Shown piece after piece: positions 33,317 through 64,000 of a stretch of 64,000 nucleotides of DNA. Below the pieces are notes generated by a model that saw only the letters and a program-made list of their open reading frames with translations, ran no database searches and was not told the DNA's origin. The translations under genes and the position numbers were made by a program. Every line of letters begins with the position of its first letter. The first letter of the stretch is position 1. The stretch is from the human T2T-CHM13v2.0 reference genome, Homo sapiens, in assembly GCF_009914755.1 (NCBI RefSeq), contig NC_060947.1, one strand, 5' to 3'.

Positions 33317-34146
33317 GCGGCGATAAAACAAGACGACCCAATGGAGCTTAATTAGGCCACACACAAAAAACATTAACTATTTAAAGGAATAATATTTAAT
33401 CTACTGGGCTAAAAATTTCAGTTGGGGTAACTTCAGAGCACCGTACAACCTCTGAATGATTAAAACCCGGACTAGACTAGTTATTCATAAAAGTGTGTTA
33501 TAATTTATTGACCCAAGCAATTTGATCAATAGAACAAGTTACCCTAGGGATAACAGCATGATCATATCTTAGAGTTCATATCAACCATAGGGATTTACAA
33601 TCCTGATGTGGGATCAGAACATCTCAATAGTATAACAGCTATTTTTTTTTTTTTTTTTTTTGAGACGAAGTCTCGCCCCGTCGCCCAGGCTGGAGTGCAG
33701 TGGTGCAATCTCGGCTCACTGCAACCTCTGCCTCCCAGGTTCAAGCGATTCTCTTGCCTCGGCCTCCCGAGTAGCTGGGACTACAGGCGCCCGCCACCTC
33801 GCCTGGCTGATTTTTTGAATTTTTAGTAGAGACGGGGTTTCACCGTGTTAGTCAGGATGGTCTGGATCTCCTGACCTTGTGATCCGCCCGCCTCAGCCTC
33901 CCAAAGTGCTGGGATTACAGACGTGAGCCACCGCGCCTGGCCAGCAGCTATTAATTGTTTATGTTTTCAATGACCAAAGTCCTACATGATTTAAGTTCAG
34001 GATCTGGGTTGGTTTCCACCTATTTAATATTTCTCCCAATACAAAAAGAGAAGAGAATTATGGCACACAAAAAGCACCCTCAATTCAAAAGATGATATAA
34101 TCTAGATCTAATTTATTATTATACACTTTGCCCCAAAACAGGGCTT
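33317..34146 (+). pseudogene. mt 16S rRNA (MT-RNR2) 3' part, NUMT, split by an Alu
   Basis: caagacga..ccaatggagctt, aagttaccctagggataacagc, gatgtgggatcagaacatc, aaagtcctacatgatttaagttcag all match conserved 16S motifs. Confidence 0.9.
33644..33942 (-). mobile_element. Alu (Sc/Y-like) inserted in NUMT 16S
   Basis: TSD a(a/g)cagctatt at 33634-33643 and 33943-33952. Confidence 0.93.
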
Positions 34147-34218
34147 GTTAAGATGGTAGAGCCTGGTAATTGCATAAAACTTGAAATTTTATAATCAGAG
34201 GTTCAATTACTCTTCTTT
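34147..34218 (+). pseudogene. mt tRNA-Leu(UUR) pseudogene; its 3' end is displaced to 46597-46613 by an L1
   Basis: gttaagatggtagagcctggtaattgcataaaactt...gaggttcaattactcttctt versus human GTTAAGATGGCAGAGCCCGGTAATCGCATAAAACTT... Confidence 0.9.
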
Positions 34219-35208
34219 TTAAAATAATTGTTTATTTTATTTTTATTTTTTGTGGGTATACAGTAGGTGTATGTATTTATGGGGTACATGGGACGTTTTG
34301 ATACAGGCATGTAATGCATATCAATCACATCGTGGAAAATGGGTATCTCCTCAAGAATTTATCCTTTCTGTTACAAAAAAATCCAATTATACTCTTTTAG
34401 TTGTTTTAAAATATACAATTAAGTTATTATTGACTATAGTCACCCTGTTGTGCTATCAAATACTAGGTCCGTTTCATTCTATTTTTTGTACTGGTTAACC
34501 ATCCCCCATCTCTCCCCAACCCTCCCCAATTCCTTTCCCAGCCTCTGGTAACCATCCTTCTACTCTCTATCTCCACAGGTTAAATTGTTTTGATTTTTAG
34601 ACCCCACAAATAAATAAGAACATGCAAGGTTTCTCCTTCTATGTCTGGCTTACTTCACTTAACATAATGATCGCCAGTTCCATCCATGTTTTTGCAAATG
34701 ACTGGATCTCATTATTTTTTATGGCTGAGTAGTACTCCATCGTGTATAAGTACCACATTTTCTTTATCCATTCATCTGTTGATGGACACAGGCTTCTTCC
34801 AACTCTTGTCTATTGTGAACAGAGTGGCAACAAACATGGGAGTGCAGATGTCTCTTCAATATACTGATTTCCTTTCTTTTGGGTATATATCCAGAGTAGG
34901 ATTGCTGGATCACATGGGTAGCTCTATTTTCAGTTTTCTGAGGAACCTCCAAACTGTTCTCTACAATGGTTGTAGTAATTTACGTTCCCACCAACAGTGT
35001 ACGAGGGTTCTTTTTTCTCCACATCTTCACCTGCAATTGTTATTGCCCGTCTTTTGGACATAAGCCATTTTAACTGAGAAGGGATGATATCTCATTGTAG
35101 TTTTGATTTGCATTTCTCTGATGATTCATTACGTTGAGCACCTATATATGCCTGTTTGTCATTTGTATGTCTTCCTTTGAGAAATGTCTATTCAGATATA
35201 TATATATA

Positions 35209-35510
35209 TTTTTTTTTTTTTTTTTTTTTTTTAGACGGAGTCTTGCTCTGTCAGCAGGCTGGAGTGCAGTGGCGCAATCTCGGCTCACTGCAACCTCCAC
35301 CTCCTGGGTTCAAGCGATTCTCCTGCCTCAGCCTCCCGAGTAGCTGGGACTACAGGCGCATGCCACCATGCCCAGCTAATTTTTGTATTTTTAGTAGAGA
35401 TGGGGTTTCACCATTTTGGCCAGGATGGTCTCGATCTCTTGACCTCGTGATCCACCCACCTTGGCCTCCCAAGGTACTGGGATTACAGGCATGAGCCACC
35501 GTGCCCGGCC
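35209..35510 (-). mobile_element. AluSc-like, inside the L1MA
   Basis: Full dimer; tcgatctcttgacctcgtg diagnostic; (TA)n-polyT tail. Confidence 0.9.
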
Positions 35511-62346: not shown

Positions 62347-62415
62347 GTAAATATAGTTTGAATGAAACATTAGGTTATAAATGTAACAGCAGAAAATTAA
62401 AACTTCTTATTTTTT
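62347..62415 (+). pseudogene. mt tRNA-His pseudogene
   Basis: gtaaatatagttt...aacattag...cttcttattt, directly after ND4. Confidence 0.8.
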
Positions 62416-63916
62416 GAGAAAGTGTGCAAGAATTGTTTATGTGATGGATTATGTTTATTGATTTGTGTATGTTGAACCAGCCTTGCATCCCAGGTATGAA
62501 GCTGACTTGATCGTGGTAGATAAGCTTTTTGATGCGCTGCTGGATTCAGTTTGCCAGTATTTTATTGAGGTTTTTCGCATCGATGTTCATCAGGGATATT
62601 GGCCTGAAATTTTCTTTTTTTGTTGTGTCGCTGCCAGGTTTTGGTATCAGGATGATGCTGGCCTCATAAAATGAGTTAAGGAGGATTCCCTCTTTTTCTG
62701 TTGTTTGGAATAGTTTCAGAAGGAATGGTACCAGCTCCTCTTTGTACCTCTGGTAGAATTTGGCTGTGAATCCGTCTGGTCTTGGACTTTTTTTGGTTGG
62801 TAGGCTATTAATTGCTGCCTCAATTTCAGAACTTGTTATTGGTCTATTCAGGGATTTGACTTCTTCCTGGTTTAGACTTGGGAGGGTGTATGTGTCCAGG
62901 AATTTATCCATTTCTTCTAGATTTTCTAGTTTATTTGCATAGAGGTGTTTATAGTATTCTCTGATGGTAGTTTGTATTTCTGTGGGATCAGTGGTGATAT
63001 CCCCTTTATCATTTTTTATTGCGTCTATTTGATTCTTCTCTTTTTTCTTCTTTATTAGTCTTGCTAGCGGTCTATTTTGTTGATCTTTTCAAAAAACCAG
63101 CTCCTGGATTCATTTATTTTTTTTGAAGGGCTTTTCGTGTCTCTATCTCCTTCAGTTCTGCTCTTATCTTAGTTATTTCTTGTCTTCTGCTAGCTTTTGA
63201 ATTTGTTTGCTGTTGCTTCTCTAGTTCTTTTAATTTTGATGTTAGGGTGTCAATTTTAGATCTTTCCTGCTTTCTGTTGTGGGCATTTTAGTGCTATAAA
63301 TTTCCCTCTACACACTGCTTTAAATGTGTCCCAGAGATTCTGGTACATTGTGTCTTCATTCTCATTGGTTTCAAGGAACATGTTTATTTCTGCCTTCATT
63401 TCATTATTCACCCAGTAGTCATTCAGAAGCAGGTTGTTCAGTTTCCATGTAGTTGTACAGTTTTGAGTGAGTTTCTTAATCCTGAGCTCTAATTTGATTC
63501 CAGTGTGGTCTGAGAGACTGTTTGTTATAATTTCTGTTCTTTTGCATTTGCTGAGGAGTGTTTTACTTCCAATTATGTCATCAATTTTAGAATAAGTGTG
63601 ATGAGGTGCTGAGAATAATGTGTATCCTGTTGATTTGGGGTGGAGAGTTCTGTAGATGTCTGTTAGATTTGCTTGGTCCAGAGCTGAGTTCAAGTCCTGA
63701 ATATCCTTGTTAATTTTTCTGTCTCGTTGATCTAATATTGACAGTGGGGTTCATGGGTGCAGCAAACCACCATGGCACATGTATACCTATGTAACAAAAC
63801 TGTACATTCTGCACATGTACCCCAGAACTTAAAGTAAAATTAAAAAATAAAAAATAAAAGAAAGTGTATAAGAACTACTAACTCATGCCCCCATGTATAA
63901 CAATATGGCTTTCTCA
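62416..63916 (+). pseudogene. mt tRNA-Ser(AGY) pseudogene split by an L1
   Basis: gagaaagtgtgcaagaa | L1 | gaaagtgtataagaactactaactcatgcccccatgtataacaatatggctttctca. Confidence 0.85.
62434..63859 (+). mobile_element. 5'-inverted L1PA: ORF2 piece on the minus strand (62434-63750) plus 3'UTR/polyA on the plus strand (63751-63859)
   Basis: Minus-strand ORF2 ORFs at 62546-62911 and 63256-63693; plus-strand gtacccCAGAACTTAAAGTA + polyA; TSD gaaagtgt(gc/at)aagaa. Confidence 0.85.
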
Positions 63917-63986
63917 ACTTTTAAAGGGTAGAAGTAATCTGTTGGCCTTAGGAGCCAAAAAATCGATACAACTCCAAATAAAAGTA
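63917..63986 (+). pseudogene. mt tRNA-Leu(CUN) pseudogene, followed by the ND5 start (ATA AAT ATA TTT at 63988)
   Basis: acttttaaagg...ttggccttaggagccaaaaaat...caactccaaataaaagta; TAG anticodon. Confidence 0.88.
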
Positions 63987-64000
63987 AATAAATATATTTT

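What the first reader, a model, noticed from the sequence alone, without database searches (positions are those of the whole stretch)
33317..64000. A mitochondrial genome fossil stretched across 31 kb
Seen: about 6.7 kb of mtDNA-like sequence in roughly ten blocks, all in one orientation and in mammalian mt gene order from 16S to the ND5 start. Removing inserts at their TSDs rejoins the genes (16S at cagctatt, tRNA-Leu at tcttctt, ND2 at acaa, COX1 at ggtgttaactt, tRNA-Asp, tRNA-Ser). Inference: one large insertion later inflated more than fourfold by transposons, rather than many separate pseudogenes. The pieces are probably already catalogued as individual MT pseudogenes.
Basis: partly seen in the sequence, partly recalled or inferred. 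Interest (0 to 1): 0.8.

Follow-up and report, generated by a model that had tools for sequence, protein, structure and literature searches.

The report
Old mitochondrial DNA insert split by transposons
This is one very old copy of almost the whole mitochondrial genome that landed inside a LINE element on the human X chromosome and was later stretched threefold by Alu, L1 and LTR insertions; it is a well-understood kind of genomic fossil whose pieces are already named as pseudogenes.

Summary
From window 33311 to 64000 I count 11 collinear, same-strand mtDNA-like blocks totalling 6,681 bp, running from the 3' third of 16S to the start of ND5. The fossil runs 7.3 kb past the window, through ND5, ND6, CYTB, control region, 12S and the 16S start, ending about 71,291. 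In all: 12,576 bp of mtDNA over 37,981 bp, nearly the whole circle, opened in 16S.

Both outer flanks are halves of one minus-strand L1M. In four Xq22 paralogues and in dispersed L1M copies the two halves adjoin, with about 10-25 bp unaccounted for. Block divergence is uniform. One insertion event is therefore strongly supported.

Two internal mtDNA gaps (about 1.4 and 1.3 kb) have no TSD and remain unexplained.

The insert is old. It predates Alu-like elements 20-24% diverged and L1/LTR copies 80-88% identical to their relatives. It sits among the deepest of 12 human NUMTs compared. Its protein fragments are no closer to human than to other mammalian chains.

The kind is known, and ten pieces are already named MT pseudogenes. 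Low interest.

The parts
32900..33310 (-). Upstream half of the L1M element into which the mtDNA inserted; the other half starts about 71,292, outside the window.
   Evidence: matches to dispersed L1 copies and to four Xq22 paralogues; in those copies the two flanks are adjacent; the downstream half matches L1 antisense.
33311..33643 (+). mt block 1: 16S rRNA (about mt 2690-3030)
   Evidence: 68% identity to the chr17 stand-in.
33644..33944 (-). Alu insert, TSD CAGCTATT (33636-33643 / 33945-33952)
33953..34217 (+). mt block 2: 16S 3' end plus tRNA-Leu(UUR) pseudogene (34146-34222; anticodon now TGA)
34218..46596 (-). 12.4-kb nest. An old, near full-length L1(-) has its A-rich 3' end at 34218. 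Nested in it are a younger L1(-) at 37722-43066 (ORF1, EN and RT readable) and Alus at 35214-35510 and 38129-34434 region (38129-38434). A further Alu at 46297-46596 sits at the nest's right edge. Outer TSD is 14 bp: CAATTACTCTTCTT (34204-34217) / CAACTATTCTTCTT (46596-46609).
   Evidence: TSD. (the old L1 is collinear across the nested L1). (3' end 80-84% identical to the 39 other copies scored).
46610..48153 (+). mt block 3: ND1, tRNA-Ile, tRNA-Gln(-), tRNA-Met, ND2 5' part
48154..48776 (.). 623-bp LTR-like repeat with TG...CA ends and 4-bp TSD ACAA (48150-48153 / 48777-48780)
   Evidence: 2,052 first-look candidates; the scored copies are 81-88% identical and full length. Two copies lie 9.5 kb apart on one strand of C23..
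48781..49346 (+). mt block 4: ND2 up to about 50 bp before its end
49347..52353 (.). 3.0-kb interspersed repeat (TG...CA ends); family not identified; no TSD seen
   Evidence: 6,118 candidates; scored copies 81-88% identical, many near full length; no Pfam domain in its ORFs; no internal repeats.
52359..57175 (-). L1(-), 5'-truncated inside ORF1, with its tail at 52359; no TSD. Together with the 3-kb repeat it replaces mt about 5460-6905 (ND2 end, the Trp/Ala/Asn/Cys/Tyr tRNA cluster, first two thirds of COX1).
   Evidence: RVT_1; L1 ORF1 domains. (85% identity to the window's younger L1). (no mt match in 49335-57170).
57170..57429 (+). mt block 5: COX1
57430..57746 (-). Alu insert, TSD GGTGTTAACTT (57419-57429 / 57747-57757)
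57758..58173 (+). mt block 6: COX1 3' end, tRNA-Ser(UCN)(-), tRNA-Asp 5' part
58174..58459 (-). Alu insert in tRNA-Asp, TSD AATTCTTT (58166-58173 / 58460-58467)
58468..59903 (+). mt block 7: tRNA-Asp 3' part, COX2, tRNA-Lys, ATP8, ATP6
59904..60404 (-). Old Alu-like monomer (59956-60155; 23.5% non-CpG divergence) plus an Alu (60106-60406; 12.4%); imperfect TSD of about 15 bp
60405..60838 (+). mt block 8: ATP6 end, COX3 5' half
60839..60890 (.). 52 bp of AT-rich filler where mt about 9547-10869 is missing (COX3 3' half, tRNA-Gly, ND3, tRNA-Arg, ND4L, ND4 start); no transposon, no TSD
60891..62036 (+). mt block 9: ND4
62037..62303 (+). Old Alu (20% non-CpG divergence). TSD unclear: the 8-mer AATAATAT lies near both edges.
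62304..62435 (+). mt block 10: ND4 end, tRNA-His, tRNA-Ser(AGY) 5' part
62436..63858 (+). L1 fragment whose 5' segment is inverted (62434-63750 antisense, 63732-63863 sense with A-tail). TSD 19 bp with 4 mismatches (62417-62435 / 63859-63877).
63859..64000 (+). mt block 11: tRNA-Ser(AGY), tRNA-Leu(CUN); continues beyond the window into ND5

Best explanation
This is a single ancient NUMT. A linear piece of mitochondrial DNA covering nearly the whole circle was ligated into a break inside a minus-strand L1M on Xq22. The piece was opened in 16S and ran from about mt 2690 through ND1...CYTB, the control region and 12S to about mt 1826; this numbering is recalled and anchored on the tRNAs of the stand-ins. 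End joining is the inferred mechanism, with at most about 10-25 bp of L1M lost.

The dead insert then took at least ten retroelement hits. In the window these are five Alu or Alu-like insertions, a full-length L1 that was itself hit by a younger L1 and by Alus, an LTR-like element with a 4-bp TSD, a 3-kb repeat, a 5'-truncated L1, and an L1 with an inverted 5' segment. One more L1 lies beyond the window. Together they stretched about 12.6 kb of mtDNA to 38.0 kb.

Shown: collinearity, the TSDs, one target site, uniform divergence. Inferred: end joining as the mechanism, the age (roughly 60-100 My), and that the two internal gaps are later losses. The first gap may be a target-site deletion made by the TSD-less L1.
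For: 1. Collinearity. All 21 blastn matches to the two stand-ins are plus-strand and in rising mt order. Nothing mt-like lies elsewhere in the 84 kb examined.

2. Extent. The span is 33311-71291, holding 12,576 mt-like bp. The hub's annotation of ND5, ND6 and CYTB pseudogenes downstream agrees.

3. One target site. In paralogue L041, sequences matching the upstream and downstream flanks lie 37 bp apart by blastn, and about 13 bp apart after extending the alignment. L040, L042, L044, L055, L058, L051 and L068 show the same adjacency.

4. TSDs. They are present at 8 of 11 interruptions examined in or at the edge of the window. The mt sequence resumes at the base where it stopped.

5. Uniform divergence. 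K2P distance is 0.31-0.48 over 14 blocks, lowest in the rRNA blocks. The ratio to the chr17-chr5 distance is 1.95-2.3 in the 5 blocks where it can be computed.

6. Not a copy of the nearest other NUMTs. The chr2 locus L002 and the chr1 locus L003 have different ends and different Alus.

7. Age.
- Two nested Alu-like elements are 20-24% diverged (non-CpG) from the local Alu consensus, against 3-13% for the other 13.
- The nested L1 3' end is 80-84% identical to the 39 other copies scored.
- In a 12-sequence ML tree the X copy sits with L002 and L003 at the deep end, with a terminal branch of 0.18.
- ND5, ND2, ND4 and CYTB fragments score higher against chains I recall as sheep, cow and pig than against human chains. 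ND1 is about equal.
Against: - Two internal gaps (mt about 5460-6905 and about 9547-10869) have no TSD. The 3-kb repeat and the L1 that fill the first gap share no TSD, so continuity there is assumed, not shown.
- The TSD of the old Alu at 62037-62303 is unclear, and 25-50 bp of ND4 is unaligned there.
- About 530 bp of presumed control region (69532-70065) does not align to the stand-in.
- The reference was two younger NUMTs, not true mtDNA, and mt coordinates are approximate.
- No orthologous locus from another species could be examined.
- The tree is unrooted, anchored on the X sequence and near saturation, so the age is rough. Node support among X, L002 and L003 is 39%.
- The species of the PDB chains are recalled, not given by the tool.
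Confidence: 0.9

Rival explanations
1. Same single event, but the insert was a patchwork from the start. Two or three non-adjacent mtDNA fragments (16S-ND2; COX1-COX3; ND4 round to 16S) were ligated in order during the repair, so one or both internal gaps never held mtDNA. This is a variant of the main reading, not an alternative to one event.
For: Neither gap has a TSD. The second gap has only 52 bp of AT-rich filler and no transposon. Rearrangement of organelle DNA during insertion is described in passages of PMC5570036 that I read.
Against: All three pieces keep the same strand and the same circular order with no overlap, which random ligation would give only part of the time. The first gap is filled by a TSD-less, 5'-truncated L1, a pattern that fits a deletion made when the L1 inserted. 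That L1 insertions can delete target DNA is from my own knowledge, not from a call.
Confidence: 0.25
2. Several independent mtDNA insertions landed near each other at different times and only look like one.
For: Only the two unexplained internal gaps.
Against: There is one L1M target site with adjacent halves. All DNA between blocks that I could classify is retroelement rather than original nuclear sequence. The blocks are strictly collinear on one strand with no overlap. Divergence ratios are uniform. Identity to L003 is 67-76% for the five long matches on both sides of three Alu inserts; one 45-bp match is 87%.
Confidence: 0.03
3. The locus is a duplicated copy of another nuclear NUMT rather than a primary insertion.
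For: The X copy, chr2 L002 and chr1 L003 join in a near-star with similar branch lengths of 0.15-0.19.
Against: L002 holds only about 1.8 kb (COX1 end to ATP6), and its flanks do not match the X region. L003 extends past the X copy's COX1 break and carries Alus at other positions. The four Xq22 paralogues of the flank lack the mtDNA.
Confidence: 0.02

Closest known systems
NUMTs fragmented after insertion by mobile elements (Hazkani-Covo & Martin 2017, PMC5570036; abstract and passages read)
   Same: An organelle insert split into collinear BLAST hits by later transposon insertions; similar identity of adjacent hits is used to argue for one event. The paper notes that an earlier human study joined hits 30 kb apart.
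   Different: Nothing in kind. Here the span is 38 kb, and the single target site is shown from paralogous L1M copies rather than from orthologues.
Named human MT pseudogenes at this locus (MTND1P32, MTND2P2, MTCO1P19, MTCO2P19, MTATP6P19, MTCO3P19, MTND4P32, MTND5P26, MTND6P32, MTCYBP32; the hub's RefSeq table)
   Same: The same DNA; my protein-coding block coordinates agree with the table.
   Different: The table lists genes one by one. It has no rows for the rRNA, tRNA and control-region parts (33311-34217; about 68.8-71.3 kb), and it does not say they form one insert.
Younger large human NUMTs on chr17 (L033-L035, about 13 kb) and chr5 (L036-L038, about 9 kb), used here as stand-ins for mtDNA
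   Same: Multi-gene, collinear mtDNA copies in nuclear DNA. The chr17 copy also crosses the control region.
   Different: They are far younger: ORFs of up to 615 aa are still open under code 2. In the stretches compared (chr17 about 2400-15721; chr5 about 12700-21800) they align to each other as one 5-kb match. The X copy is 62-71% identical to them by blastn (66-75% on anchored columns) and three quarters of its span in the window is inserted repeats.
Ancient (pre-eutherian) human NUMTs (Huang & Frith, bioRxiv 10.1101/2025.03.14.643190; abstract and passages read)
   Same: Highly diverged NUMTs that ordinary BLAST settings undercount.
   Different: That study reports that most NUMTs are under 1 kb. 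Whether this locus is in their set, and what age they give it, I could not see, because bioRxiv supplements are closed. My age estimate does not show this locus to be pre-eutherian.

Membership tests
NUMT (nuclear copy of mitochondrial DNA) | Sequence homology to mtDNA beyond chance | tested here: met
   blastn E from 2e-6 down to 0 against two other mtDNA copies. PDB hits to ND1, ND2, ND4, ND5 and CYTB chains at E from 5e-26 to 9e-60.
NUMT (nuclear copy of mitochondrial DNA) | Mitochondrial gene order and strand, including tRNAs | tested here: met
   Order is 16S, Leu, ND1, Gln(-), ND2, COX1, Ser(-), COX2, Lys, ATP6, COX3, ND4, Ser, ND5, CYTB, Thr, Pro(-), 12S. The reference gene order is recalled and matches the tRNA order in the stand-ins.
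NUMT (nuclear copy of mitochondrial DNA) | Embedded in nuclear sequence | tested here: met
   Both flanks are L1M sequence on chromosome X.
NUMT (nuclear copy of mitochondrial DNA) | Coding capacity lost | tested here: met
   Every gene is covered only by several tblastn pieces in different frames. The longest code-2 ORF in the mt blocks is 158 aa.
Single insertion event later split by transposons | Interruptions are transposons bounded by target-site duplications, and mtDNA resumes where it stopped | tested here: met
   Met at 8 of 11 interruptions in or at the edge of the window. Not met at the 3-kb repeat plus L1 (49347-57175), at the 52-bp filler, and unclear at the Alu 62037-62303.
Single insertion event later split by transposons | One pre-insertion target site | tested here: met
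   The flanks are adjacent in 4 Xq22 paralogues and in dispersed L1M copies.
Single insertion event later split by transposons | Uniform divergence of the blocks | tested here: met
   K2P 0.31-0.48; ratio to the chr17-chr5 distance 1.95-2.3 in 5 of 5 comparable blocks.
Single insertion event later split by transposons | Orthologous loci show all blocks present or all absent | not testable with these tools
   No other mammalian genome is held; the genome search holds prokaryotes and the window's own assembly only.

The most novel reading that the evidence does not exclude
The insert predates the primate radiation (about 65-100 My). It would then be among the oldest near genome-length mitochondrial fossils in the human genome, preserving a boreoeutherian-like mtDNA that includes rRNA genes and part of the control region. 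That would be useful as an internal outgroup for early primate or eutherian mtDNA and for measuring 80 My of neutral decay on the X.
Probability: 0.4. Interest if true: 0.4.

Novelty: already known. Interest (0 to 1): 0.22.

Why it matters
There is little new biology here, but the locus is a clean teaching case. One NUMT would be counted as ten or more by hit-based surveys; one great-ape T2T study merged only overlapping hits (passage read). It shows how far masking and gene-by-gene pseudogene naming understate such fossils. It also gives a layered record of retroelement activity on Xq22: old Alu monomer, old L1, LTR-like element, then younger L1 and Alus.

NUMTs lying inside a retrotransposon were reported as rare, 10 of 557 in Tsuji et al. 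2012 (passage read). This is one of them.

Tried and rejected
I used stop-free ORFs and local tblastn instead.
- Rfam gave no mitochondrial rRNA match in the 16S block, only Alu/SRP-like, miRNA-like and two tRNA hits.
- A DNA search of the genome with the ND1-ND2 block was swamped by the LTR-like repeat and gave no other NUMT.
- I first placed the 5' end at about 33286, from a resemblance to 16S. Alignment to the L1M paralogue fits better, so I dropped this.
- A sensitive search for the missing tRNA cluster and COX1 5' part in 49301-57200 found nothing; best E was 0.10, and tblastn found nothing either.
- The missing 16S middle (about mt 1826-2690) is not in 25000-33500 nor in 71000-84000.
- The 3-kb repeat has no Pfam domain in ORFs of 60 aa or more and no internal direct or inverted repeat.
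- Six paper searches found no paper on this locus. The pseudogene names appear only in expression lists, mostly as prefixes of other names.
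Full report
**Reference material.** The window is G000:C23:101184001-101248000. The assembly as held has 24 contigs and no mitochondrial contig, so I needed stand-ins for mtDNA. A COX1 family search of the genome pointed to two large, younger nuclear mitochondrial inserts (NUMTs), which I fetched.
- The chr17 locus carries, in order, Glu(-), Thr, Pro(-), Phe, Val, Leu(UUR), Ile, Gln(-), Met, Trp, Ala(-), Asn(-), Cys(-), Ser(UCN)(-), Asp, Lys and Gly.
- The chr5 locus carries Ser(UCN)(-), Asp, Lys, Gly, Arg, His, Ser(AGY), Leu(CUN) and Glu(-).
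- Under code 2 they still hold open frames of up to 342 aa (chr17) and 615 aa (chr5).
- They are 82% identical over 5 kb of overlap.

Mitochondrial coordinates below are approximate. They come from these tRNA anchors and from human numbering that I recall.

**The observation.** I added the next 20 kb to the window (L009, L010). blastn against the two stand-ins then gave 21 matches, all plus-strand and in rising mt order, at 62-74% identity, with E from 2e-6 to 0. Nothing mt-like lies in window 1-33300 or in 71301-84000 (0 hits).

tblastn under code 2 finds ND1, ND2, COX1 (last third), COX2, ATP6, COX3 (first half), ND4 and ND5, each in several frames. Stop-free fragments hit mammalian ND1, ND2, ND4, ND5 and cytochrome b chains in the PDB at E from 5e-26 to 9e-60. 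Rfam and ARAGORN find tRNA-shaped genes at the positions of Leu(UUR) and Gln. ARAGORN in mammalian-mt mode adds Ser(UCN), Lys, Ser(AGY), Thr and Pro on the expected strands; the same run also made 6 calls outside the mt blocks, which I take to be false.

**Extent.** The fossil does not stop at ND5. It continues through:
- ND5 (64018-64249 and 65579-67096),
- ND6, tRNA-Glu and CYTB (to about 68762),
- Thr and Pro (68772-68893),
- part of the control region (to 69531),
- then tRNA-Phe, 12S, Val and the first about 150 bp of 16S (70066 to about 71291).

The 534 bp between 69531 and 70066 do not align. The matching unaligned stretch in the chr17 copy is 572 bp, so I take it to be diverged control region.

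In all there are 12,576 mt-like bp over 37,981 bp. The circle was opened in 16S, and about 0.86 kb of 16S (about mt 1826-2690) is found on neither side.

**One target site.** The 636 bp before the insert match L1 copies across the genome. They match best, at 69-72%, four places within 1 Mb on the same chromosome.

In those four paralogues (L040-L043) and in dispersed L1M copies (L044, L051, L055, L058, L068), sequence matching the upstream flank is followed directly by sequence matching the DNA after 71,292. In L041 the two matches are 37 bp apart, and about 13 bp apart once the upstream alignment is extended to 33313. Over the other copies about 10-25 bp are unaccounted for.

The same alignment shows that 33286-33310, which I had first read as 16S, is L1M. 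The L1M lies antisense on the plus strand. Everything between 33311 and 71291 thus entered one site in one old LINE element.

**The interruptions.**

| Position | What it is | TSD |
|---|---|---|
| 33644-33944 | Alu(-) | CAGCTATT |
| 34218-46596 | L1 nest (see below) | 14 bp, 2 mismatches |
| 48154-48776 | LTR-like, TG...CA ends | ACAA |
| 57430-57746 | Alu(-) | GGTGTTAACTT |
| 58174-58459 | Alu(-) in tRNA-Asp | AATTCTTT |
| 59904-60404 | old Alu-like monomer plus an Alu | about 15 bp, imperfect |
| 62037-62303 | old plus-strand Alu | unclear |
| 62436-63858 | L1 with inverted 5' segment, in tRNA-Ser(AGY) | 19 bp, 4 mismatches |
| 64189-65584 | older L1(-) in ND5, beyond the window | not examined |

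- *The 12.4-kb nest.* It is an old minus-strand L1 with its A-rich 3' end at 34218. Its C-terminal, middle, RT and EN regions are collinear at 34790-37310 and 43690-44341, on either side of a younger, better preserved L1 at 37722-43066. Alus lie inside it. A further Alu (46297-46596, own TSD CAACT) sits exactly at its right edge. The outer TSD is CAATTACTCTTCTT / CAACTATTCTTCTT.
- *The LTR-like element.* It is 623 bp. The genome search gave 2,052 first-look candidates, and the scored copies are 81-88% identical. Two copies lie 9.5 kb apart on one strand, as in a provirus.

**Two gaps.** Between ND2 (ending about 49346, about 50 bp short of its end) and COX1 (resuming about 57170) about 1.44 kb of mtDNA is missing. 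Neither blastn (best E 0.10) nor tblastn finds it.

That space holds two elements:
- A 3.0-kb repeat (49347-52353; TG...CA ends). Many near full-length copies are 81-88% identical. It has no Pfam domain and no internal repeats.
- A minus-strand L1 (52359-57175), truncated inside ORF1.

Neither has a TSD. A deletion made when the L1 inserted would fit, but this is inference.

The second gap, about 1.32 kb from mid-COX3 to early ND4, is marked only by 52 bp of AT-rich filler at 60839-60890. Either gap could instead date from the insertion itself.

**Uniform divergence.** On alignments anchored to the X copy, identity to the chr17 copy is 66-75% and to the chr5 copy 66-73% over 14 blocks. K2P is 0.31-0.48, lowest in the rRNA blocks as expected. 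In the five blocks where all three sequences overlap, d(X,chr17)/d(chr17,chr5) is 2.16, 2.29, 2.04, 1.95 and 2.05.

Identity to the chr1 NUMT L003 is 67-76% for the five long matches on both sides of three Alu inserts; one 45-bp match is 87%.

**Age.** All of this is rough.
- Non-CpG divergence from a majority consensus of the 15 Alus in the 84 kb is 3-13% for 13 of them. It is 20.0% and 23.5% for the two old Alu-like inserts inside the mtDNA. Part of that excess reflects subfamily difference rather than age.
- The old L1's 3' end is 80-84% identical to the 39 other copies scored.
- I built an ML tree of the COX1-ATP6 region (2,112 columns). It holds the X copy and 11 other human NUMTs, kept because each covered more than 1,100 columns; 6 of the 17 candidates were dropped for low coverage. 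The X copy joins chr2 L002 and chr1 L003 at the end farthest from the young chr17/chr5 pair. Its terminal branch is 0.18 substitutions per site. The node joining the three has only 39% support.
- At a neutral rate of about 2.2e-9 per site per year (a recalled figure), 0.18 would be about 80 My. The range is wide.
- The ND5, ND2, ND4 and CYTB fragments score higher against chains I recall as sheep, cow and pig than against human chains. For ND5 the scores are 204, 198 and 196 against 169 bits; for ND4, 106, 101 and 97 against 78. ND1 is about equal. The insert therefore lacks most changes of the lineage leading to human mtDNA.
- The flank's Xq22 paralogues, 72% identical, lack the insert. It therefore came after that duplication.

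**Not a duplicate of the nearest other NUMTs.** L002 holds only about 1.8 kb of mtDNA and has unrelated flanks. L003 extends past the X copy's COX1 break and has Alus at other positions.

**What is known.** The hub's RefSeq table already names ten protein-gene pieces. The idea that organelle inserts are broken up by later mobile elements, and must be re-joined to count events, is set out in Hazkani-Covo & Martin 2017 (PMC5570036; abstract and passages read). That paper cites earlier human work joining hits up to 30 kb apart. Very old human NUMTs are reported by Huang & Frith (bioRxiv 10.1101/2025.03.14.643190; abstract and passages read).

Six searches found no paper describing this locus as a whole. 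The older human NUMT compilations are not in the searched library, and bioRxiv supplements are closed, so I cannot say it has not been listed as one unit.

**Verdict.** This is a real, correctly read, ordinary feature of a known kind. It is larger and older than the window alone suggests.

Noticed in passing
window 32685-33310 and beyond 71292; loci L040 (C23:101968339-101971978), L041 (C23:101852354-101855976), L042 (C23:101328408-101332005), L043 (C23:101896978-101900460): The L1M flank and about 200 bp of non-L1 sequence before it have four paralogues within 1 Mb on Xq22, at 69-72% identity, all without the mtDNA. This looks like an old local segmental duplication in the GPRASP/ARMCX neighbourhood.
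   Followed up: partly
window 49347-52353: A 3.0-kb interspersed repeat with TG...CA ends. It has 6,118 first-look candidates, and many near full-length copies are 81-88% identical. It is absent from the hub's list of the 20 longest masked stretches, has no Pfam domain and no internal repeats. I could not name the family.
   Followed up: partly
window 34218-37721 and 43067-46296: Most of the old L1 is likewise missing from the hub's list of long masked stretches, so the stated 32% masked understates the repeat content of the window.
   Followed up: no
window 34146-34222: The tRNA-Leu(UUR) pseudogene still scores above Rfam's tRNA gathering score (35.9 against 29 bits). Its anticodon now reads TGA, so ARAGORN calls it tRNA-Ser. 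tRNA-Gln at 47615-47690 also passes (34.4 bits).
   Followed up: no
L033-L035 (C17:23205001-23235000), joined coordinates 15720-15972: The chr17 NUMT used as a stand-in ends with about 250 bp that match the ND6/tRNA-Glu region of the chr5 copy in the opposite orientation. That NUMT is therefore itself rearranged or composite.
   Followed up: no
G000:C23:78250928-78251546 and 78260480-78261104: Two copies of the 623-bp LTR-like repeat lie 9.5 kb apart on the same strand, as expected for the two LTRs of a provirus. This could identify the family.
   Followed up: no
window 62434-63863: An L1 fragment whose 5' part is inverted relative to its 3' end (matches to L1 positions 2857-1539 antisense, then 5337-5468 sense). 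It is flanked by a 19-bp TSD. This is the pattern usually ascribed to twin priming, an attribution from my own knowledge.
   Followed up: no
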